Assembly (NCBI GenBank): GCA_027624865.1
Contig: JAQBTT010000002.1
Location: 1 to 48,809 of the forward strand
Direction: 5' to 3'
Source: a bacterium
GTDB taxonomy: Bacteria; Patescibacteriota; Minisyncoccia; Minisyncoccales; UBA10102
Length of the DNA stretch: 48,809 bases
Under the pieces are notes generated by a model. The model saw only the letters and a list, made by a program, of their open reading frames with translations. It was not told the DNA's origin and did no database searches. Below, piece after piece: positions 5,388 to 44,170 of this stretch (its first letter is position 1; each line of letters starts with the position of its first letter). Both the position numbers and the translations under genes were made by a program.

Positions 5388-6476
5388 CTAGAATATCCTA
5401 ATAACATCTTTTATGGTAACCCAGATCATCATTGATATTAACAGGACAAACACTATTGCAGAAAGTCTCTTTTCAAAAGTTTCTGAAATAGGCTTTTTGC
5501 GTATTGCTTCTATTGTTAAAAATAGCAATTTCCCGCCATCAACCACAGGGATAGGAAGAGCGTTGAAGATAGCAAGGTACACTGCAAGAACAGCAAGGAA
5601 AGAAAGGAAGTGAGGCACTCCAAGTGATAGAGAGTTTGTTAAAAGATGAACAATGCCAACTGGACCTGTAAATTCAACTCCTGCCGGCACGCCCCTACCA
5701 GATACAAGGTTTACAGCAAGGCCTCCAAGACCACCTATAATTTCTCCAGTAAGTTTTCCTGTTCTAATTACCCCTTGCACGGGAGCCTCAAGTAGTGTGT
5801 ATTTCACAAATGCAGTTCGCACAAGAGCAACTCCCATAGATCCTTCCCCGTCGGGTGGATCTATTCTTGGCATTAACGTAACCTCACTAATTTCATCCCC
5901 TCGCTTAAGAGTAATAATGATTTCTTCTCCTACTACCTTATCGGTGAAGGATTGCACCTCCCCAACTTTTGTTGGGAAAGCAAATGCTCCAGAGGTAGAG
6001 CTCACCATTTTTACAATGCTGTCTCCAAGCTCAATGCCAGCTATTTTCGCCGGAGAGTCCTTTGCTACACCAAGAATTTGTACTTGAGGATTTATTACTC
6101 CTGCAGTTTCTTCATCTCCAATTCCCGTTGGAATACCACTGGTAGCGCCAAGCCCAGTAAAGATAATGACGGCCACAAGCCAAAAGGCCACAACACCAGC
6201 TGCAACGATAACCATTCTTTGCCATATGGGTTTTGCAGAAAAGCTTCGGGGACCGGGGATAGCTTGTTCCTCTCCTTCAAGGCGTACAAAGGCACCTAGC
6301 GGAAGTAAGTTGATAGAATAAATAGTCTCCCCTATCTTTTTCCCAATCAGGCGAGGGGGAAGTCCAATACCAAACTCTTCAACTTTTACCCCATACTTTT
6401 TTGCAAAAAGATAGTGGCCCAGTTCATGCAGGATAACCAAAATAAGAAAGCTTGCGATAACGATAATAAGTGTCAT
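5388..6476 (-). CDS. rseP: RIP site-2 metalloprotease (M50) with PDZ domain
   Basis: 362-aa ORF with HELGHYLFAKKYG (HExxH), multiple TM segments and a central PDZ-like region. Confidence 0.88.
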   Translation of the reverse strand: MTLIIVIASFLILVILHELGHYLFAKKYGVKVEEFGIGLPPRLIGKKIGETIYSINLLPLGAFVRLEGEEQAIPGPRSFSAKPIWQRMVIVAAGVVAFWLVAVIIFTGLGATSGIPTGIGDEETAGVINPQVQILGVAKDSPAKIAGIELGDSIVKMVSSTSGAFAFPTKVGEVQSFTDKVVGEEIIITLKRGDEISEVTLMPRIDPPDGEGSMGVALVRTAFVKYTLLEAPVQGVIRTGKLTGEIIGGLGGLAVNLVSGRGVPAGVEFTGPVGIVHLLTNSLSLGVPHFLSFLAVLAVYLAIFNALPIPVVDGGKLLFLTIEAIRKKPISETFEKRLSAIVFVLLISMMIWVTIKDVIRIF

Positions 6477-26221: not shown

Positions 26222-26493
26222 ATGTTTAAGAGTCCAAGCGTGATCATACTTACAATGATCCCTGCTATTATGTGCCCCAATAGCATTATTGTTAAGGGGA
26301 AAATAGCTATTAACATATAGTAATGCCACATGTTAGTACGGACACAATGGCTGCAGCCATTATGTGCCCCAATAGCATTATTGTTAAGGGAAAAATAGCT
26401 ATTAACATATAGTAATGCCACATGTTAGTACGGACACAATGGCTGCAGCCATTATAACGCCAAAAAGGATAAGAGGAAATGCCTTGCGAAACG
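26218..26493. repeat. Three tandem 92-bp units, each encoding a variant of the C-terminal TM helix of the upstream membrane-protein gene
   Basis: 26267-26358 equals 26359-26450 apart from one base (26300 g vs 26392 a). The units read ...GVIMAAAIVSVLTCGITIC*, ...GHIMAAAIVSVLTCGITIC* and ...GHIIAGIIVSMITLGLLNI*. Confidence 0.85.
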
Positions 26494-26851: not shown

Positions 26852-26876
26852 GTTGCACTATTGTATCATCTCTCGT

Positions 26877-26919
26877 AAAAAAAGAAGAGTGCCCGGGATT
26901 TTAATTTTCCCCAGGCACT
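26877..26919 (-). terminator. Intrinsic terminator after the 74-aa ORF
   Basis: agtgcctgggg...cccgggcact stem followed by a T-rich run on the minus strand. Confidence 0.7.
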
Positions 26920-26932
26920 ATATACATAAAAA

Positions 26933-27157
26933 TTATGCGAGCGTGCTTTGAAGCTGGCAAAATCGAAGTAGCTTTCGTATTTGTGTTTTCTCAGAGGCTC
27001 CAATTTCGCCCCCAAGCTCAAAGTATACTACAAGGTACATGCGCCTTGCTGATTCCTCCCACAGATTTAAGGAGCCTCCTTCAAGAATCTTTCGCAAAAG
27101 GGATTGGAGAATCTCGCAAGCCTGTCTTAAAGCTTCCATTTTCCCATGATCAACCAT
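26933..27157 (-). CDS. Hypothetical 74-aa protein (self-contained cassette)
   Basis: MVDHGKMEALRQACEIL...; GGGGGAGGG lies 4 nt upstream of the ATG; it has its own promoter and terminator; higher G+C than the flanks. Confidence 0.6.
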   Translation of the reverse strand: MVDHGKMEALRQACEILQSLLRKILEGGSLNLWEESARRMYLVVYFELGGEIGASEKTQIRKLLRFCQLQSTLA

Positions 27158-27194
27158 AATTCCCTCCCCCAAACACAAAGTAGATGGTGTAGGA

Positions 27195-27223
27195 AATATA
27201 ATAAACTGATGTCCTCTTGTCAA
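27195..27223 (-). promoter_or_regulatory. Sigma70-like promoter TTGACA-17-TATATT
   Basis: -35 at 27218-27223 and -10 at 27195-27200, upstream of the 74-aa ORF. Confidence 0.6.
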
Positions 27224-27253
27224 TATTTCTTTGTCTTGCGACATCAATGAAAT

Positions 27254-27283
27254 AAAAAAGGCACTCCTAGCTAAAGGGTGCCT
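27254..27283 (-). terminator. Intrinsic terminator after the 93-aa ORF
   Basis: aggcaccc...ggagtgcct stem followed by T6 on the minus strand. Confidence 0.7.
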
Positions 27284-27312
27284 TTCATTCTTGCCCGAAG
27301 CCACCAAAGAGG

Positions 27313-27594
27313 CTAAGGGTGCTTGAAGCTAAACTCATCGCCCGCTCGAATGAGGGTCATCCCGCTTCCTTTGGGAGTGAGCTTCTTGCCGTTTAAACTG
27401 AAGGGGCCAAGGACAGTTATATTACCATTACCGATTTTAGCCATGGCAACCCTGGCAGCTTGAGGCACTGTGCAACCAACAAACCCATGATGGCTCTTAA
27501 TAACCTTAGTGCCTCTCCATTTGTGCCAAAGGAAGGCCTTTGGTGCGTTCGTGATCCTAGCTGTAGTAAGCTGAAAATCAGGTCCTCTTCTCAT
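27313..27594 (-). CDS. Hypothetical 93-aa protein (self-contained cassette)
   Basis: MRRGPDFQLTTARITNAPK...; GAGGAG upstream; candidate TTGACA-17-CATAGT promoter at 27628-27656; higher G+C than the flanks. Confidence 0.55.
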   Translation of the reverse strand: MRRGPDFQLTTARITNAPKAFLWHKWRGTKVIKSHHGFVGCTVPQAARVAMAKIGNGNITVLGPFSLNGKKLTPKGSGMTLIRAGDEFSFKHP

Positions 27595-27644
27595 CCCCTC
27601 TACTCCTCGCCAAAAATCCTCGTCTTGACTATGCTCTATTCACC

Positions 27645-39114: not shown

Positions 39115-39744
39115 TTAGCTCAAAAATGTTTCCTCAATTACTTTTAAAGATTCTTTTGGCAAAACAATGTAGGTAATTTGGGTGAGCAACAATGCGCTCA
39201 ATTCTCTTGCCTGCACGGTTTGTACATAAGGAATGTTTTGTGCCGCGCGAATAATCTTTTCGTCCATTGTAGGCAATACAAGCAATGTGCTCTTTTTCTC
39301 AAAAGGAAGTCCATTGAGTATTGCAACTAAGTCCTTTGTCTTTGCCTTCTCTATATTTAGGGAATCCAAAACAATGACCTGCTTTTGTCGGAGTTTCTCA
39401 GACAAAACAGTAAATAAGGCCTTTCTTCTCATTTTCACGTTCAATTTTCGCTTGTAGTTTCGCTCTGCTGTTGGTCCGTGAGTAACTCCACCTCCACTCC
39501 AAATAGGAGAGCGGATAGAGCCATGACGAGCTCGTCCTGTGCCCTTTTGACGCCAAGGCTTCTTTCCACCTCCACTCACTTCACTTCGGTCCTTTACTTT
39601 TGCTGATACCTGTCGTTGGTTCCCCATCTGAATAACTGTAACCTGCTGCAGCAAATCATCATTTCGTGCAACATCAAAAATCTTCTTTGCAAGCTCCAAC
39701 TCCTCAACTTTCTCTCCTTTTATGTTGATAACTGCTTGTTTCAT
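39115..39744 (-). CDS. rplD: Ribosomal protein uL4
   Basis: 209-aa ORF (GGGKKPWRQKGTGRARHGSIRSPIWSGGG). Confidence 0.94.
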   Translation of the reverse strand: MKQAVINIKGEKVEELELAKKIFDVARNDDLLQQVTVIQMGNQRQVSAKVKDRSEVSGGGKKPWRQKGTGRARHGSIRSPIWSGGGVTHGPTAERNYKRKLNVKMRRKALFTVLSEKLRQKQVIVLDSLNIEKAKTKDLVAILNGLPFEKKSTLLVLPTMDEKIIRAAQNIPYVQTVQARELSALLLTQITYIVLPKESLKVIEETFLS

Positions 39745-40301
39745 ACTTTTCCTTCAATAAAAAGGAGCGTGCCTGGACGACCAGGTACAGCTCCTTTTAC
39801 TGAGAGTGTATTGCTTTCAATATCAATTTGCACTATTTTAAGGTTTTTCACTGCAATCCTATCTCCTCCCATTCTTCCAGGCATACGTCTTCCTTTAATA
39901 ACTCGCTGTGGATACCTACTCCCAACAGATCCAATGGTTCGATGTTCGTGCTTTACACCATGTGAAGCGCTCTTTCCGTGCATTCCGTGTCGTTTTACAC
40001 CTCCTTGAAATCCCTTCCCTTTGGAAATACCAGATACTTTTACGCTATCCCCTTCCTCAAATATAGAAATAGTCGCCTCATCTCCAACCTCCAAAGCAGT
40101 TCCCTTAATCTCTTTTATTGCTTTAAACCCTTTTTTCTTCTTTGGCTCAAATCCAACCTGAATTGCCTCATACCCATTAACTTCCATAGTGAGCTTTCGC
40201 AAAACAGAAATAGGCCCAGCTTCAATAACGGTCACAGGAATGACTTTATCTTCTTTAAATATCTGGGTCATACCCAATTTTCTTCCTAGTATGCTTTTCA
40301 T
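39741..40301 (-). CDS. rplC: Ribosomal protein uL3
   Basis: 186-aa ORF (ILGRKLGMTQIF...GKGFQGGVKRHG). Confidence 0.94.
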   Translation of the reverse strand: MKSILGRKLGMTQIFKEDKVIPVTVIEAGPISVLRKLTMEVNGYEAIQVGFEPKKKKGFKAIKEIKGTALEVGDEATISIFEEGDSVKVSGISKGKGFQGGVKRHGMHGKSASHGVKHEHRTIGSVGSRYPQRVIKGRRMPGRMGGDRIAVKNLKIVQIDIESNTLSVKGAVPGRPGTLLFIEGKV

Positions 40302-40319
40302 AAATGGTTTATATCTTTA

Positions 40320-40346
40320 CAACAAAACACCGGACCTAACCCGGTG
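40320..40346 (-). terminator. Terminator-like hairpin in the rplC leader (candidate attenuator)
   Basis: caccgg-gttaggt-ccggtg followed by TTTTGTTG, about 20 nt upstream of the rplC ATG and about 65 nt downstream of a promoter. Confidence 0.45.
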
Positions 40347-40409
40347 CTCAAAAAAGCTTTCGGTTAAACCCTCACTGCTCACAAGGCTAGCTTAGTGTTC
40401 ACAAAATAG

Positions 40410-40438
40410 AGTATATATCAATGACAAAAGAATGTCAA
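40410..40438 (-). promoter_or_regulatory. Sigma70-like promoter TTGACA-17-TATACT for rplC and downstream genes
   Basis: -35 at 40433-40438 and -10 at 40410-40415. Confidence 0.65.
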
Positions 40439-40588
40439 TAACAAAAAGGGTTGGGGAAGAGGAGGAAGGCTTGGAGCGGTAGCTCAACAAAGCGCATGCC
40501 CCTCCTGGACGAGTCATGTCGCCCAGTCCCGCTTTCCCTATACCATCTTTAAAATAATAAGCAAGATGATGTACGAGATGAGTTCAAA

Positions 40589-40616
40589 TGAAAAGCCCCG
40601 TTTTTCTTCACGGGGC
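40589..40616 (-). terminator. Intrinsic terminator after the Cys-rich ORF
   Basis: gccccg-tgaagaaaaa-cggggc followed by TTTTC on the minus strand. Confidence 0.75.
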
Positions 40617-40644
40617 TTTGTTCTCTCTTAAGCTATGGGGCATC

Positions 40645-40872
40645 TTATGCACTTTCTTGAGCAGCCTCTTGCATCCGCTCCTTCCGTTCCCCTTCTGTAA
40701 GTCCCCGCCCCCACCATTTAGGACAACTTCCATCAGGGCAAAGATGCACGTCAGGCTCGCTACAGGTGCCACAGAGAGACAGGCCACACCCACCACCAAC
40801 TGGGCAAGACCATTCCATTCCTCCAGTTGGCTGCGCGCATTGCCCGCAAACTCTTACCTCAGGCATCTTCAT
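40645..40872 (-). CDS. Hypothetical 75-aa Cys-rich (8 Cys, two CxxC) protein
   Basis: MKMPEVRVCGQCAQPTGGMEWSCPVGGGCGLSLCGTCSEPDVHLCPDGSCPKWW...; GGAGG 4 nt upstream; GC-rich; has its own terminator. Confidence 0.6.
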   Translation of the reverse strand: MKMPEVRVCGQCAQPTGGMEWSCPVGGGCGLSLCGTCSEPDVHLCPDGSCPKWWGRGLTEGERKERMQEAAQESA

Positions 40873-40979
40873 CCTACCTCCAAGCTACCAAGTCTAATCT
40901 ATTCATACCACTCTCATCTAAGAAATCAACTTTATTAAAAAATCACCTAAATGGCAATTCTCTCTTAGTACCCATATAT

Positions 40980-41010
40980 CAATACCACACCATGGTATGG
41001 TGTGGTATTG
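40980..41010. promoter_or_regulatory. Perfect 14-bp inverted repeat (3-nt spacer) upstream of the Cys-rich ORF
   Basis: caataccacaccat ggt atggtgtggtattg. Confidence 0.5.
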
Positions 41011-41054
41011 GTACAAGATAAAAAGTACCAGAGGTATCTGTTAATATCTTAACT

Positions 41055-41088
41055 AGAGCGCGGCCGAGAACTGTTCTCGGCCGCCCAA
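41055..41088. repeat. 34-nt GC-rich palindromic repeat R (copy 1)
   Basis: agagCgcggccgagaac t gttctcggccgcccaa; identical to 41756-41789 apart from one base. Confidence 0.85.
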
Positions 41089-41126
41089 GCTTCGCTAAGC
41101 TTAACTAGGTTTAGGAGGATTAAAAA

Positions 41127-41170
41127 CAAAAAAAGAAAGCCTCGCACAGGATTATTGCCGTGTGCGAGGC
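41127..41170 (-). terminator. Intrinsic terminator after the 106-aa ORF
   Basis: gcctcgcaca-12 nt-tgtgcgaggc followed by a long T-rich run on the minus strand. Confidence 0.85.
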
Positions 41171-41187
41171 TTTTTGAAACGCATATC

Positions 41188-41508
41188 TCATGCAGTCAAA
41201 AGAACGGGATTGCCCAAGCTGTTATGAAGCGCCTCAACGACTATTGGCGGGCTGGCCGGAACAAACACTCGTTGAAGCTTTGGAGCCTCCAAAACAGAAC
41301 CCCATGCCTTTGCTCCTTGTACCGCGCGCAAAAGTGTTCTACGAAGAGCCCTGGAAGAAGTACAAAAGATATAGGAATCTGCACCCCAAAGTCCAAACTC
41401 AAGGCCGGGAATGCGAACTATCCAAAGAAAACCGTCGTTTTCTGGAAAGAGCCATATCTCTGGCTCACTTGTTATTTCCTGAAGCTGGATGGTCAACATG
41501 GTCAACAT
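41188..41508 (-). CDS. Hypothetical 106-aa protein
   Basis: MLTMLTIQLQEITSEPEIWLFPENDGFLWIVRIPG...; GGGGAGGGA 4 nt upstream of the ATG; promoter and terminator present. Confidence 0.55.
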   Translation of the reverse strand: MLTMLTIQLQEITSEPEIWLFPENDGFLWIVRIPGLEFGLWGADSYIFCTSSRALRRTLLRAVQGAKAWGSVLEAPKLQRVFVPASPPIVVEALHNSLGNPVLLTA

Positions 41509-41555
41509 AGTATCCCTCCCCTGCTTTCTATTCGTGTGGTAAAACGCTTTCACCC

Positions 41556-41584
41556 AGATTACGCAACTTCACCGCTATAGTCAA
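41556..41584 (-). promoter_or_regulatory. Candidate promoter TTGACT-17-TAATCT
   Basis: -35 at 41579-41584 and -10 at 41556-41561, upstream of the 106-aa ORF. Confidence 0.45.
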
Positions 41585-41703
41585 CACAGCTAAACCAAAA
41601 ACCCGCCCACATGGCGATTCTGTAAAACTTGCTCCGAGCAAGGTGGGGATAACTTAGCCTGACTAAGTTTGAATAACTAAATTCGGTTTAGCTTTCTGCA
41701 ATG

Positions 41704-41738
41704 CTGGGCTGGGCTAAGACTGTCTTAGCCCAGCCCAG
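41704..41738. repeat. Perfect 17+1+17 palindrome
   Basis: ctgggctgggctaagac t gtcttagcccagcccag, with a single central T like repeat R and the TrpR-flanking palindromes. Confidence 0.85.
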
Positions 41739-41755
41739 TACGCGTTCGCCTATCC

Positions 41756-41789
41756 AGAGGGCGGCCGAGAACTGTTCTCGGCCGCCCAA
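41756..41789. repeat. 34-nt GC-rich palindromic repeat R (copy 2)
   Basis: agagGgcggccgagaac t gttctcggccgcccaa. Confidence 0.85.
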
Positions 41790-41873
41790 TGTTGCTCCCC
41801 TTGCAGAACGTACTAAGAACTTTTGAGTGGATGAGTATAAAGGAAAAAATGAGGAAATTTCCTTCTTTTATGC

Positions 41874-41908
41874 AAAAGAAAGCCCGAGTTGCCATTGCTA
41901 CTCGGGCT
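41874..41908 (-). terminator. Intrinsic terminator after the 84-aa membrane ORF
   Basis: agcccgag-12 nt-ctcgggct followed by TTCTTTT on the minus strand. Confidence 0.8.
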
Positions 41909-41953
41909 CTTGATTCTTCGTTTCTCATCTCGTCAACTGTAAAGATTCACAAA

Positions 41954-42208
41954 CTACGGCCAACCCTTCTTGGCTACTATTCGGTGGGTGATGGAACCAA
42001 ACAGTAGTCCAGCGAGTCCACCAATGAGTACGCCAACACCGATGCTGTCCCCTCTAACAGATTCAGAAAGAAGACATAGGGCAAGCATGACAAGCATGCC
42101 TAGCACCACCCCACCAAGAACTCCTAAAAGTTCTCTCGAGAAGACGTCGAAAAAAAGATGTGCGACAAAGTACAGCGGTACAGCGAGCTTTACTGGATTA
42201 TCATTCAT
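41954..42208 (-). CDS. Hypothetical 84-aa two-TM glycine-zipper membrane peptide
   Basis: MNDNPVKLAVPLYFVAHLFF...GVLGGVVLGMLVMLAL...GVGVLIGGLAGLLFG...; AAGGGAG 6 nt upstream of the ATG, downstream of a TATAAT promoter. Confidence 0.6.
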   Translation of the reverse strand: MNDNPVKLAVPLYFVAHLFFDVFSRELLGVLGGVVLGMLVMLALCLLSESVRGDSIGVGVLIGGLAGLLFGSITHRIVAKKGWP

Positions 42209-42251
42209 GATAACTCCCTTCCCAATCATAGGATCACTATCGTGTCTTGCC

Positions 42252-42279
42252 ATTATACCTATTCTCTCTTGTAATTCAA
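42252..42279 (-). promoter_or_regulatory. Sigma70-like promoter TTGAAT-16-TATAAT
   Basis: -10 at 42252-42257 and -35 at 42274-42279. Confidence 0.6.
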
Positions 42280-42295
42280 TGAAGGCTACGCTACC

Positions 42296-42320
42296 AAAAA
42301 ACCGCCCCGAAAGGGGCAGT
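42296..42320 (-). terminator. Short intrinsic terminator directly after rpsJ
   Basis: GCCCC-tttc-GGGGC followed by GGTTTTTT on the minus strand. Confidence 0.6.
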
Positions 42321-42346
42321 TCTTTCAAACTAAGCTTAGCTTAGTT

Positions 42347-42691
42347 CTACATCTTTATCTCTATATCAACTCCGGCTGGAAGATTGAGGTTCGTTAGAGC
42401 TTCAATCACCTTAGGATTTGGAGCGAGAATATCAATGATTCTCTTATGTGTTCGCATCTCGTACTGTTCTCGTGCATCCTTATGCACAAAGGAAGAACGG
42501 TTTACCGTGTACTTTTTAATAGCCGTTGGCAAAGGAACAGGACCTACAGCCTCACATCCATATCTTAAAACAGTATCAATAATCTGCTTTGAAGAAGCAT
42601 CTATGACTTTGTGGTCGTAAGCTGAGATTTTAATCCTCAACTTTTGCTGCAAGGGAGCTGTCTTTTCTGTTTTTTGTTTTGTAGCGGGCAT
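42347..42691 (-). CDS. rpsJ: Ribosomal protein uS10
   Basis: 114-aa ORF (KLRIKISAYDHKVIDASSKQIIDT...THKRIIDI). Confidence 0.94.
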   Translation of the reverse strand: MPATKQKTEKTAPLQQKLRIKISAYDHKVIDASSKQIIDTVLRYGCEAVGPVPLPTAIKKYTVNRSSFVHKDAREQYEMRTHKRIIDILAPNPKVIEALTNLNLPAGVDIEIKM

Positions 42692-42720
42692 AAAAGGTAC
42701 AGGCTAAGCGAGATAAAGAA

Positions 42721-43960: not shown

Positions 43961-44170
43961 TCATAGAGGTAAATCGTCAATTGTCAACTCCCCAGCACCT
44001 CGCTCTACATCTTCCTCTTGATAAAAAGGCTCGGCCTCCTCTTTATCTCCATTCTCAATCTCCCTATCATCCACATACGGAGCAATGATCATCACCGGCT
44101 CTCCATTCTCAACAATGATAATCTTCCCTTTATCCTTTCGCAGTATCCTCTTTAAATCTTCAAGATCCAT
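43961..44170 (-). CDS. Hypothetical 69-aa acidic protein (Phd/YefM-like N-terminal pattern, tentative)
   Basis: MDLEDLKRILRKDKGKIIIVENGEPVMIIAPY... followed by an acidic tail; located between fusA and tuf. Confidence 0.5.
   Translation of the reverse strand: MDLEDLKRILRKDKGKIIIVENGEPVMIIAPYVDDREIENGDKEEAEPFYQEEDVERGAGELTIDDLPL

What the first reader, a model, noticed from the sequence alone, without database searches (positions are those of the whole stretch)
40302..42346. A 2-kb GC-rich island of three small-protein cassettes splits the normally adjacent rpsJ-rplC pair
S10 (rpsJ, 42347-42691) and L3 (rplC, 39741-40301) are one of the most conserved gene adjacencies in bacteria. Here they are 2045 bp apart. 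The gap holds three monocistronic units on the operon strand, each with its own signals. (i) An 84-aa two-TM glycine-zipper peptide has a TTGAAT-16-TATAAT promoter, an AAGGGAG SD and a terminator. (ii) A 106-aa protein has a TTGACT-17-TAATCT promoter, a GGGGAGGGA SD and a strong terminator. (iii) A 75-aa protein with 8 cysteines (two CxxC) has a GGAGG SD and a terminator. As a result rpsJ has acquired its own terminator and rplC its own TTGACA-17-TATACT promoter. The island is visibly richer in G+C than its flanks. Its ORFs carry strong SD sequences, whereas about 15 housekeeping starts I checked (tuf, rpsJ, rplC, fusA, rpsL, alaS, mnmA, tpiA and others) have none. I cannot place any of the three proteins in a known family. 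A small membrane peptide, a soluble partner and a zinc-ribbon-like protein, flanked by palindromic repeats, could be a toxin/immunity or other accessory module sitting in the most transcribed locus of the cell. That interpretation is inference only.
Basis: partly seen in the sequence, partly recalled or inferred. Interest (0 to 1): 0.8.

Follow-up and report, generated by a model that had tools for sequence, protein, structure and literature searches.

The report
Small-gene islet between rpsJ and rplC
A 1.7-kb stretch of apparently foreign DNA carrying three self-contained small-protein genes sits between two ribosomal-protein genes of an uncultured Parcubacteria bacterium, but in this lineage that junction is an operon boundary where extra genes often accumulate, so the case is a modest one.

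Summary
rpsJ (42347-42691) and rplC (39741-40301) lie 2045 nt apart. The gap carries three minus-strand small ORFs with strong Shine-Dalgarno (SD) sites and strong terminators. Its G+C is 46.9%, against 41.8% elsewhere in the window.

The closest genome, L003 (S10 87% and L3 89% identical), has a 306-nt gap. That gap already holds the same rpsJ terminator, the same TTGACA-17-TATACT rplC promoter and a near-identical rplC leader. The island (about 40570-42294) is therefore a lineage-specific indel. It did not create those signals.

In 71 Parcubacteria relatives the gap has a median of 247 nt, and 27 have 600 nt or more (maximum 5.6 kb) with unrelated cargo. The tuf-rpsJ gap never exceeds 188 nt. 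So rpsJ ends the tuf unit, and rplC starts its own operon behind a conserved attenuator-like hairpin.

The 106-aa protein is real. It belongs to a five-member family with dN/dS of 0.15-0.39, and every member is an SD-led, terminator-flanked unit in an SD-poor genome. The 84-aa membrane peptide and the 75-aa Cys8 protein have no homologues.

No toxin, defence, phage or plasmid match was found.

Best reading: moron-like accessory units inserted at an insulated operon boundary. Their function is unknown.

The parts
42347..42691 (-). rpsJ (S10). It is the last gene of the tuf-containing unit and lies 29 nt downstream of tuf with no terminator between them.
   Evidence: Pfam PF00338, E 5.5e-32. The tuf-rpsJ gap has a median of 36 nt and a maximum of 188 nt in 79 relatives. 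No terminator-like site was found at 42692-42720.
42296..42319 (-). T1, the intrinsic terminator of rpsJ. It is ancestral and not part of the insertion.
   Evidence: Stem energy -13.2 kcal/mol followed by U6. The same hairpin follows rpsJ in L003 at 6343-6368. 50 of 71 relatives have a terminator-like hairpin within 150 nt after rpsJ.
40570..42294 (-). Lineage-specific island of about 1.73 kb. It is absent from the closest genome, L003.
   Evidence: blastn synteny breaks between window positions 40568 and 42348, against L003 6379 and 6335. The junctions were also read by eye. G+C is 46.9%, higher than all 437 same-size windows elsewhere.
42252..42279 (-). Predicted promoter of p84, TTGAAT-16-TATAAT.
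   Evidence: 10 of 12 consensus matches. Its -10 element overlaps the upstream ATG of the 99-aa reading, which favours the 84-aa start.
41954..42208 (-). p84, an 84-aa membrane peptide with two hydrophobic segments and GxxxG motifs. The SD GGGAAGGGAG lies at 42214-42223.
   Evidence: Hydropathy peaks at residues 26-48 and 55-75. Only sub-threshold glycine-zipper Pfam hits were found, at E 0.18-0.32. It has no homologue among 5.8 billion proteins. SD duplex energy is -7.9 kcal/mol.
41873..41909 (-). T2, the terminator of the p84 unit.
   Evidence: Stem energy -20.1 kcal/mol followed by a U-tract.
41751..41789 (-). Copy 1 of the 39-nt direct repeat, with the 14-1-14 palindrome GGGCGGCCGAGAAC-N-GTTCTCGGCCGCCC. 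It lies upstream of the p106 unit.
   Evidence: No match was expected by chance (mean 0.00 in 100 shuffles). The repeat has only these two copies in the window and was not found in the 89 loci fetched by then, in JGI metagenome contigs or in viral contigs.
41704..41738 (-). Perfect 17-1-17 palindrome of unknown role.
   Evidence: repeat I2. RNA hairpin energy -31.3 kcal/mol.
41556..41584 (-). Predicted promoter of p106, TTGACT-17-TAATCT.
   Evidence: Read from the sequence. It did not pass the tool's filter, which requires a T at position 6 of the -10 element.
41188..41508 (-). p106, a 106-aa soluble protein of a rare uncharacterised family. The SD GGGGAGGGA lies at 41513-41521.
   Evidence: Four homologues were found: P0003 (E 8e-20), P0004, P0007 and P0008. 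They align over the full length with 21 invariant columns. dN/dS is 0.15-0.39. There is no Pfam, PHROG, PADLOC or PDB match. The AF2 model has pLDDT 59 and gave no Foldseek hit.
41128..41174 (-). T3, the terminator of the p106 unit.
   Evidence: Stem energy -23.6 kcal/mol followed by U7.
41050..41088 (-). Copy 2 of the 39-nt direct repeat. It lies downstream of the p106 unit.
   Evidence: 92% identical to copy 1, 701 nt away.
40977..41013 (-). 17-3-17 palindrome upstream of p75.
   Evidence: repeat I3. RNA hairpin energy -21.6 kcal/mol.
40645..40872 (-). p75, a 75-aa protein with 8 cysteines (CxxC at 9-12 and 34-37; C23, C29, C45, C50). The SD GGAGG lies at 40873-40882. Its coding status is the least certain of the three.
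   Evidence: SD duplex energy -9.9 kcal/mol. No homologue was found in any search. Its score under the host codon model is -0.03, below every host gene but above the antisense ORF at -0.14.
40586..40619 (-). T4, the terminator of the p75 unit and the last island feature.
   Evidence: Stem energy -17.4 kcal/mol followed by a U-tract.
40440..40568 (-). Conserved non-coding block shared with L003. It is ancestral spacer of unknown role.
   Evidence: Aligned with L003 6379-6513. The consensus fold has a GGGCGA/UCGYCC hairpin and AGGAGG/CCUCCU pairing. The 41-aa ORF here is not conserved in L003.
40410..40438 (-). rplC promoter, TTGACA-17-TATACT. It is ancestral.
   Evidence: 11 of 12 consensus matches. 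Identical hexamers and spacing occur in L003.
40302..40409 (-). rplC leader with an attenuator-like hairpin at 40320-40349.
   Evidence: The 58-nt core is 97% identical to L003, whereas coding DNA is about 80% identical. Covariance model R1 hits 40313-40355 at 36.4 bits. All hits with E<0.05 in 881 kb lie in the rpsJ-rplC spacer. Stem covariation is shown. A possible antiterminator pairing carries a compensatory change.
39741..40301 (-). rplC (L3), the first gene of the rplC-rplD-rplW-rplB... operon.
   Evidence: Pfam PF00297.

Best explanation
**The organism and its operon layout**
- The window comes from an uncultured Parcubacteria (CPR) bacterium.
- In this lineage rpsJ is the last gene of the fusA-tuf unit and has its own terminator.
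- rplC starts a separate operon, with its own sigma-70-type promoter and a conserved leader that ends in an attenuator-like hairpin.

**What the island is**
- The roughly 1.73-kb island lies in the spacer between that terminator and that promoter.
- It consists of three autonomous small-gene units. Each has a strong Shine-Dalgarno site and an intrinsic terminator, and two have a recognisable promoter.
- The units most likely arrived by horizontal transfer after the split from the nearest sequenced relative (inferred).
- Each unit ends in a strong hairpin, and the rplC promoter and leader are intact. The insertion therefore should not disturb ribosomal-protein expression, which explains why it is tolerated (inferred).
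- The same spacer has repeatedly taken up unrelated cargo in related genomes (shown).

**Function**
- The function is not established.
- p106 is a real cytoplasmic protein under purifying selection (shown).
- p84 is probably a small oligomerising membrane protein with two transmembrane segments (inferred).
- p75 is probably a small protein that binds two zinc ions (inferred).
- My best guess is three independent accessory small proteins rather than one coupled system.
For: **Empty site and absence from relatives**
- L003 has a 306-nt gap with the same terminator, promoter and leader.
- No homologue of the three ORFs occurs in 80 related loci.

**The junction is variable in this lineage**
- The rpsJ-rplC gap has a median of 247 nt, and 27 of 71 relatives have 600 nt or more.
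- The tuf-rpsJ gap has a median of 36 nt and never reaches 600 nt in 79 relatives.
- Cargo elsewhere is unrelated: TauE, NYN, reverse transcriptase, a NUDIX-methyltransferase-CYTH protein, DUF3141, a beta-helix protein, aminotransferase IV and pirin.

**Composition and signals**
- The island has higher G+C than all 437 same-size control windows.
- SD duplex energies of -7.9 to -11.7 kcal/mol compare with an SD-poor host.
- Four strong hairpins followed by U-tracts and the promoters are listed.

**p106 family**
- The family has five members, with dN/dS of 0.15-0.39.
- In four other contexts the gene is again an SD-led unit followed by a terminator-like hairpin; three also have one upstream and one has its own downstream 2-TM ORF. 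Neighbouring genes mostly lack SD sites.

**Related units and leader**
- A second islet at 26870-27644 holds two SD-led small orphan ORFs, each followed by a terminator-like hairpin. One has its own promoter.
- The leader motif is specific to the rplC upstream region.
Against: - No mobility gene, target-site duplication or att-like boundary was found, so the mechanism and direction of the indel are inferred. Loss in the L003 lineage is not formally excluded.
- The G+C excess is only about 5 points.
- p84 and p75 have no homologues and show no variation across assemblies. Their coding status rests on signals alone, and p75 scores poorly under the host codon model.
- All promoters and terminators are predictions. 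No transcript data were available.
- Small membrane ORFs lie next to p106 homologues in 3-4 of 5 contexts. This could mean that p84 and p106 are functionally linked after all.
Confidence: 0.7

Rival explanations
1. Toxin/immunity or toxin-antitoxin module. The glycine-zipper membrane peptide p84 would be a membrane-damaging toxin, p106 its soluble antidote or partner, and p75 a zinc-ribbon regulator.
For: - p84 has two hydrophobic segments with GxxxG motifs.
- p106 homologues lie next to a 72-aa 2-TM ORF in L083, a 74-aa 2-TM ORF in L085-L087 and a 174-aa membrane protein in L089.
- These small neighbours also carry strong SD sites.
Against: - There is no PADLOC, Pfam, PHROG or PDB match for any of the three proteins.
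- p84 and p106 are separated by terminator T2 and about 290 nt, and each has its own promoter. Classical pairs are co-transcribed.
- The neighbouring membrane ORFs are not homologous to p84 or to each other.
- The L084 homologue has no membrane-peptide neighbour.
- Membrane proteins are common neighbours by chance.
Confidence: 0.15
2. Cassette captured by site-specific recombination. The 39-nt palindrome-bearing direct repeats that flank the p106 unit would be recombination sites, comparable to att or dif sites or to the ends of palindrome-associated transposable elements (PATEs). The island would then have grown cassette by cassette.
For: - Two copies that are 92% identical lie in direct orientation, 701 nt apart, and bracket exactly one promoter-ORF-terminator unit.
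- In L085 a duplicated fragment of the arfB 3' end follows the 74-aa membrane ORF. That looks like an insertion scar.
Against: - The island has no recombinase or transposase, and no ORF longer than 124 aa on the operon strand.
- The repeat was not found in 89 loci, in JGI metagenome contigs or in viral contigs.
- p106 homologue loci lack such repeats.
- The island's outer boundaries carry no repeat.
Confidence: 0.12
3. Ancestral operon members. The three genes would be old, vertically inherited residents of the rpsJ-rplC spacer that were deleted in the L003 lineage.
For: - Many relatives have something in this spacer.
- The direction of a single indel cannot be proven from one close relative.
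Against: - None of the 80 related loci encodes a homologue.
- G+C and SD usage are atypical for the host.
- p106 homologues sit in unrelated contexts elsewhere, near arfB, MOSC and other genes.
Confidence: 0.07
4. Mostly non-coding DNA. The island would be filler or a structured-RNA region, and the p84 and p75 ORFs would be chance reading frames.
For: - p84 and p75 have no homologues anywhere.
- Each ORF has a long antisense ORF.
- The region is rich in perfect palindromes.
- p75 has a codon score of -0.03.
Against: - p106 is demonstrably coding.
- All three ORFs have a correctly spaced strong SD site. The base rate is 6.1% per ATG, so about 2e-4 for three.
- Each is followed by a strong terminator on the same strand.
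- The sense ORFs score higher than their antisense partners.
- No Rfam family matches.
Confidence: 0.06

Closest known systems
Phage 'morons' (independent transcription units added between conserved genes; Cumby, Davidson & Maxwell 2012, PMC3594210)
   Same: - Extra DNA lies between two genes that are neighbours in the closest relative.
- Each unit has its own terminator, and most have their own promoter.
- G+C differs from the flanks.
- The cargo is small proteins of unknown function.
   Different: - The location is a chromosomal ribosomal-protein cluster, not a phage or prophage.
- There are no phage genes nearby.
- There is no PHROG, phage-genome or viral-contig match.
Genomic islets (short horizontally acquired segments without mobility genes)
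   Same: - The segment is a lineage-specific indel of about 1.7 kb.
- Its composition is atypical.
- It carries orphan genes.
- It encodes no integrase or transposase.
   Different: - The insertion point is the rpsJ|rplC boundary, which is used again and again across Parcubacteria (27 of 71 relatives).
- The cargo genes carry SD sites in a genome that otherwise hardly uses them.
E. coli S10-operon leader with L4-mediated attenuation (reviewed in Fu et al. 2013, PMC3616713)
   Same: - A terminator-shaped hairpin sits in the 5' leader, immediately upstream of the first gene of the operon that encodes L4.
- The leader is more conserved than the coding sequence.
   Different: - The leader precedes rplC, not rpsJ.
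- There is no sequence or Rfam similarity.
- L4 dependence is untested.
- This feature concerns the ancestral flank, not the island itself.
str operons that end with rps10 (archaea, cyanobacteria and plastids; from my own knowledge, not checked here)
   Same: rpsJ follows tuf closely and is transcriptionally separated from rplC.
   Different: Here rpsJ and rplC remain neighbours on the same strand, separated only by a variable spacer.

Membership tests
Phage moron | Extra DNA between two genes that are adjacent in related genomes | tested here: met
   L003 has a 306-nt spacer and the window has 2045 nt. The flanks are collinear.
Phage moron | Own promoter and terminator | tested here: met
   Tested at the sequence level only. 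Promoters were found for p84 and p106, and terminators T2, T3 and T4. The p75 promoter is weak (9 of 12). No transcript data were available.
Phage moron | [quoted passage not shown] | tested here: met
   46.9% against 41.8 +/- 1.2%. None of 437 control windows is as high.
Phage moron | Resides in a phage or prophage genome | tested here: not met
   The flanks are tuf-rpsJ and rplC-rplD. There are no PHROG hits, no match in phage genomes and none in viral contigs.
Toxin-antitoxin / toxin-immunity / defence system | A component matches a known toxin, antitoxin, immunity or defence family | tested here: not met
   PADLOC gave no hits. Pfam gave none above threshold. PDB sequence and fold searches gave none.
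Toxin-antitoxin / toxin-immunity / defence system | Partner genes are co-transcribed or translationally coupled | tested here: not met
   Terminator T2 (-20.1 kcal/mol), about 290 nt of spacer and a separate promoter lie between p84 and p106.
Toxin-antitoxin / toxin-immunity / defence system | The gene pair is conserved across genomes | tested here: inconclusive
   Three to four of the five p106 contexts have an adjacent membrane ORF, but these ORFs are not homologous to p84.
Toxin-antitoxin / toxin-immunity / defence system | The toxin is toxic and is neutralised by its partner | not testable with these tools
   This requires expression experiments.
Integron gene-cassette array | Promoterless cassettes, each ending in an attC site, next to an intI integrase and attI | tested here: not met
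   The units have their own promoters. The only repeat is a perfect 14-1-14 palindrome in two copies, around one unit only. The island has no ORF longer than 124 aa. An integrase elsewhere in the genome was not searched for.
Glycine-zipper membrane peptide families (Pfam PF13488, PF13441) | Score above the Pfam gathering threshold | tested here: not met
   Scores were 12.2 and 11.2 bits, against cut-offs of 25 and 28.9.
E. coli-type S10 (L4) leader and other curated r-protein leaders | Match to an Rfam covariance model | tested here: not met
   No ribosomal leader family appeared, even at E<=5.
Vertically inherited S10-operon member | Present at the same position in related genomes | tested here: not met
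   tblastn with the three proteins against 80 related loci found only the identical contigs.

The most novel reading that the evidence does not exclude
Parcubacteria may use the rpsJ|rplC operon boundary, and other boundaries such as the one after map, as landing pads for a distinct class of self-contained small-gene cassettes. Each cassette would carry a strong SD site and flanking terminators. Some would be bracketed by palindromic recombination sites. A still unidentified recombination system would move them. Their SD sites would give them a privileged translation mode in genomes that otherwise barely use SD sites.
Probability: 0.1. Interest if true: 0.7.

Novelty: new member of a known kind. 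Interest (0 to 1): 0.35.

Why it matters
1. **Premise corrected.** In Parcubacteria the 'universal' S10-L3 adjacency is an operon boundary with a variable spacer of up to 5.6 kb. This matters for people who use syntenic ribosomal-protein blocks as phylogenomic markers or as checks on binning.
2. **Possible engineering site.** The spacer lies between a terminator and a promoter and is naturally insulated. It could serve as a neutral insertion site when engineering Patescibacteria.
3. **New small proteins.** The work adds a small protein family (p106, five members) and two orphan small proteins from microbial dark matter.
4. **Candidate leader.** As a by-product, it reveals a candidate ribosomal-protein leader/attenuator upstream of rplC. 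That motif is widespread in Parcubacteria and absent from Rfam.

None of this is surprising on its own. The island itself is an ordinary kind of accessory insertion.

Tried and rejected
**Protein family and structure searches**
- Pfam, PADLOC and PHROGs gave nothing above threshold for the three proteins. Pfam and PHROGs gave nothing for the p106 homologues either.
- PDB sequence searches gave only noise for the p106 profile and for p75.
- AlphaFold2 models of p106 were poor: pLDDT 50 for the single sequence and 59 with a five-sequence alignment. Foldseek against the PDB gave no hit with E<0.4, so no fold is assigned.

**Homologue searches**
- The word-indexed search of 5.8 billion proteins found only self-hits for p106 and p84, and nothing for p75.
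- Only the exhaustive HMMER search, followed by a profile search, recovered the four p106 relatives.
- A metagenome-contig scan with p75 found no relative.
- Viral-contig scans with the concatenated proteins and with the p106 profile found none.
- Phage and plasmid genome collections gave no match.

**RNA and repeat searches**
- Rfam gave nothing in the gap at gathering thresholds, and only sub-threshold noise at E<=5.
- The 39-nt repeat was searched for in JGI metagenome contigs, in viral contigs and in all fetched loci. There were no further copies.
- The 'CTAAGCTTAG' motif, which seemed to mark cassette borders, is not significant: 6 matches were found against 2.3 expected. I dropped it.

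**Other checks**
- No population variation is available. L002 and L091 are identical to the window, and L001 differs at a single position over 7067 nt.
- The N-terminal 'MP' seen in three p106 homologues suggested a tautomerase-like catalytic Pro1. The proline is not conserved, so I rejected the idea.

Full report
**1. What is in the sequence**

The ribosomal-protein cluster runs on the minus strand.
- rpsJ lies at 42347-42691 (Pfam Ribosomal_S10, E 5.5e-32) and rplC at 39741-40301 (Ribosomal_L3). They are 2045 nt apart.
- tuf ends 29 nt upstream of rpsJ, and no terminator-like site lies between them.

Read in the operon direction, the gap holds the following features (coordinates verified):
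- Terminator T1 at 42296-42319.
- The p84 unit: promoter TTGAAT-16-TATAAT at 42252-42279, SD GGGAAGGGAG, the p84 ORF at 41954-42208, and terminator T2 at 41873-41909.
- About 290 nt of palindrome-rich spacer. It contains copy 1 of a 39-nt repeat (41751-41789) and a perfect 17-1-17 palindrome (41704-41738).
- The p106 unit: promoter TTGACT-17-TAATCT at 41556-41584, SD GGGGAGGGA, the p106 ORF at 41188-41508, and terminator T3 at 41128-41174.
- Copy 2 of the repeat at 41050-41088 and a 17-3-17 palindrome at 40977-41013.
- The p75 unit: SD GGAGG, the p75 ORF at 40645-40872, and terminator T4 at 40586-40619.
- A 130-nt block at 40440-40568, the promoter TTGACA-17-TATACT at 40410-40438, and a 108-nt leader that runs up to rplC.

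The four terminators have stem energies of -13 to -24 kcal/mol and are followed by U-tracts.

**2. Is it more than chance?**

- **G+C.** The island (40570-42294) has 46.9% G+C. Same-size windows elsewhere average 41.8 +/- 1.2% with a maximum of 45.0%, and none of 437 reaches it.
- **SD sites.**
  - Anti-SD duplex energies for the three ORFs are -7.9, -11.7 and -9.9 kcal/mol.
  - Only 2 of 39 host gene starts reach -7.9, and one of those is mis-spaced.
  - Over all 424 ATG codons followed by at least 50 codons, the rate is 6.1%. Three out of three by chance is about 2e-4.
- **Codon usage.**
  - Under a host codon model, p106 scores 0.21 per codon, within the host range of 0.30 +/- 0.08.
  - p84 scores 0.07 and p75 scores -0.03.
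  - The three antisense ORFs score -0.01 to -0.14.
- **Assembly.** The region is identical in two other assemblies (L002, L091), and a third (L001) differs at one position over 7067 nt. It is not an assembly artefact, but there is also no population variation to exploit.

**3. Organism and the empty site**

- A scan of one genome per GTDB species with S10 returned only Patescibacteria/Parcubacteria-type MAGs.
- The closest, L003 (CAJXJI010000002), has S10 87% and L3 89% identical and is collinear with the window at about 80% nucleotide identity.
- Its rpsJ-rplC spacer is 306 nt. It contains four features that the window shares:
  - the same terminator directly after rpsJ;
  - the homologue of the 130-nt block;
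  - the same TTGACA-17-TATACT promoter;
  - a leader whose 58-nt core is 97% identical to the window's.
- Homology breaks between T1 and the 130-nt block. The window-specific DNA is therefore about 40570-42294.
- I saw no target-site duplication and no terminal repeat at the two junctions.
- It follows that the rpsJ terminator and the rplC promoter were not created by the insertion. They are the ancestral state, and the island sits between them.

**4. The junction is not conserved in this lineage**

- In 71 related loci that carry both genes, the rpsJ-rplC spacer has a median of 247 nt. Twenty-seven loci have 600 nt or more, and the maximum is 5607 nt.
- The tuf-rpsJ spacer has a median of 36 nt, a maximum of 188 nt, and never reaches 600 nt (n=79). 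The rplC-rplD spacer has a median of 11 nt.
- Fifty of the 71 have a terminator-like hairpin within 150 nt after rpsJ.
- The large spacers carry unrelated genes: TauE, NYN domain (twice), a reverse transcriptase, a NUDIX-methyltransferase-CYTH protein, DUF3141, a beta-helix surface protein, a class IV aminotransferase and pirin, plus many small ORFs.
- None of them encodes a relative of p84, p106 or p75.
- In these bacteria, then, rpsJ belongs to the tuf unit and rplC begins a new operon. The boundary between them is a recurrent site of gene gain. From my own knowledge (not checked here), rps10 likewise ends the str operon in archaea, cyanobacteria and plastids.

**5. The rplC leader (flank, not island)**

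- About half of the related loci have a terminator-shaped hairpin 10-75 nt before the rplC start. Its consensus is A-CCGGG-[YUAG-type loop]-CCCGG-U followed by a U-tract.
- In an alignment of 32 examples, the stem shows 30 cells with changes on both sides, against 9.8 +/- 2.4 in shuffles. Pairing collapses when the partner columns are shifted. The examples were selected for being hairpins, so pairing as such is by construction.
- The stronger test is specificity.
  - A covariance model built from the alignment was searched over 881 kb on both strands.
  - It gave 34 plus-strand hits with E<0.05, and all lie in the rpsJ-rplC spacer.
  - Four of these are in loci that were not in the seed alignment. 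The window hit at 40313-40355 scores 36.4 bits.
  - Nothing elsewhere scores better than E=0.4.
- One of the hits (L080) is the rpsJ terminator rather than the leader hairpin.
- Between the window and L003, the stem carries an A-U to G-C compensatory change. An upstream GAACRCU segment co-varies with the 3' arm, as an antiterminator would.
- No Rfam family matches. The published set of ribosomal leader candidates lists an rplC-associated L4 leader only for Archaeoglobi (PMC7247131).
- The hairpin works like the L4-controlled attenuator of the E. coli S10 leader (PMC3616713). It shares no sequence with that leader, and its ligand is untested.

**6. The three proteins**

*p106*
- p106 is a real gene.
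- An exhaustive HMMER search of 1.84 billion cluster representatives found two relatives (E 8e-20 and 5e-8). A profile search of 5.8 billion proteins added two more.
- The five proteins align end to end with 21 invariant columns, including DGxxW, GLxF and DSxIFCxxSxxL.
- dN/dS is 0.15-0.39 wherever dS is not saturated.
- The homologues lie on short contigs that look like Parcubacteria (a TauE gene similar to that of L006; neighbours without SD sites). Their contexts differ:
  - after arfB and a metallo-beta-lactamase-fold gene (L083);
  - beside a MOSC gene (L084);
  - after arfB (L085-L088);
  - after a membrane protein (L089).
- In every case the gene has a strong SD site (-8.7 to -12.1 kcal/mol) and is followed by a terminator-like hairpin. 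L084, L085 and L089 also have a terminator upstream. In L083 a small 2-TM ORF with its own SD follows before the terminator. Most neighbouring genes have no SD site.
- No Pfam, PHROG, PADLOC or PDB relative exists. The AF2 model is of low confidence (pLDDT 59) and Foldseek finds nothing.

*p84*
- p84 has two strongly hydrophobic segments (residues 26-48 and 55-75) with GxxxG motifs. Its only Pfam hits are sub-threshold glycine-zipper matches.

*p75*
- p75 has eight cysteines, spaced as in a small fold that binds two zinc ions.

*Both orphans*
- Neither p84 nor p75 has a homologue in any collection searched.

**7. Are they one system?**

- Small 2-TM ORFs lie next to p106 homologues in L083 (downstream, 72 aa) and in L085-L087 (upstream, 74 aa). 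A 174-aa membrane protein precedes the homologue in L089.
- This hints at a link, but several points argue against it:
  - These ORFs are not homologous to p84 or to each other.
  - L084 lacks such a neighbour.
  - Membrane proteins are frequent neighbours by chance.
  - In the window, a strong terminator and a separate promoter divide p84 from p106.
- I therefore rate the toxin/immunity idea at about 0.15 and prefer three independent accessory units.

**8. How did it get there?**

- This is not known. The island has no ORF longer than 124 aa on the operon strand and no recognisable mobility gene.
- The 39-nt palindrome-bearing direct repeats bracket exactly the p106 unit, 701 nt apart. They could be recombination sites or operator sites.
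- The repeat has no other copy in the window, in the 89 loci fetched by then, in JGI metagenome contigs or in viral contigs.
- Its 13-nt core GAGAACNGTTCTC recurs once, in L089. There it forms the centre of a 20-1-20 palindrome next to three DnaA boxes. About 0.05 matches are expected by chance in 900 kb.

**9. Comparison with known kinds**

- The architecture matches the definition of a phage moron on three points: extra DNA between genes that neighbour each other in relatives, its own promoter and terminator, and deviating G+C (PMC3594210).
- The fourth point fails, because the setting is a chromosomal ribosomal-protein cluster with no phage signal. It works like a moron but is not a member of that class.
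- It fits the broader, well-known category of a small genomic islet of orphan genes.
- A second islet of the same style lies after map at 26870-27644. It holds two SD-led orphan ORFs of 93 and 74 aa, each followed by a terminator-like hairpin. One has a TTGACA-17-TATATT promoter. The pattern is therefore not unique to this junction.

**10. Verdict**

- The main surprise, a split in an 'inviolable' adjacency, dissolves once relatives are examined.
- What remains is an ordinary accessory insertion with one new small protein family and two unverified orphans.
- Two by-products are of some interest: the recurrent use of the rpsJ|rplC boundary, and a candidate rplC leader.
- Interest is 0.35. Novelty: a new member of a known kind.

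Noticed in passing
window 40302-40409 (-), hairpin 40320-40349; also L003 6545-6642 and about 33 other loci: A terminator-shaped hairpin (CCGGG, a YUAG-type loop, CCCGG, then a U-tract) is conserved just upstream of rplC in about half of 72 Parcubacteria loci.
- A covariance model finds it only in the rpsJ-rplC spacer across 881 kb.
- The leader core is 97% identical between the window and L003, and a possible antiterminator co-varies with the stem.
- There is no Rfam match.

It is a candidate new ribosomal-protein (L4?) leader/attenuator.
   Followed up: partly
window 26870-27644 (-): A second islet lies directly after map. It holds two orphan ORFs of 93 aa (27313-27594) and 74 aa (26933-27157).
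- Both have strong SD sites (-8.4 and -11.8 kcal/mol).
- Each is followed by a terminator-like hairpin, and one has a TTGACA-17-TATATT promoter.
- G+C is 45.2%.
- Neither has a Pfam match.

The architecture is the same as in the rpsJ-rplC island.
   Followed up: partly
window 40440-40568 (-); L003 6379-6513: A roughly 130-nt non-coding block lies between the rpsJ terminator and the rplC promoter and is conserved with L003.
- It has a conserved GGGCGA/UCGYCC hairpin and AGGAGG/CCUCCU pairing.
- The 41-aa ORF in it is not conserved.
- Its function is unknown.
- The island's right-hand edge abuts it.
   Followed up: partly
window 43961-44170 (-): A 69-aa acidic ORF lies between fusA and tuf. It is conserved at the same position in L003 (69% identity) and in at least eight other Parcubacteria loci. 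It has no Pfam match. It appears to be an unannotated conserved small gene inside the str operon.
   Followed up: partly
window 41066-41078 and 41767-41779; L089 5148-5188: The 13-nt palindrome core GAGAACTGTTCTC of the island repeat occurs once more among about 900 kb of fetched loci. That copy is in L089, a contig that also carries a p106 homologue. There it is the centre of a 20-1-20 palindrome next to three TGTGGATAA DnaA boxes. It may be a protein-binding site.
   Followed up: partly
L085 2200-2335: Downstream of the 74-aa membrane ORF lies a fragment that encodes a copy of the ArfB C-terminal tail (…QKRKRLSEKHIIYTRKQQRKRP…). The intact arfB gene lies just upstream at 1392-1748. This looks like a scar from insertion of a small-gene cassette into the 3' end of arfB.
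   Followed up: no
window 26300-26359 and 26392-26451: An exact direct repeat of at least 60 nt, with a 92-nt period, lies at the 3' end of a small membrane-protein gene. It overlaps the predicted GTG start of tpiA. The true tpiA start is probably further downstream.
   Followed up: no
L016 3346-4518; L006 7329-7928; L040 6411-7046: Other Parcubacteria carry a reverse transcriptase (RVT_1) or NYN-domain genes in the same rpsJ-rplC spacer. The NYN gene recurs in two unrelated genomes.
   Followed up: no
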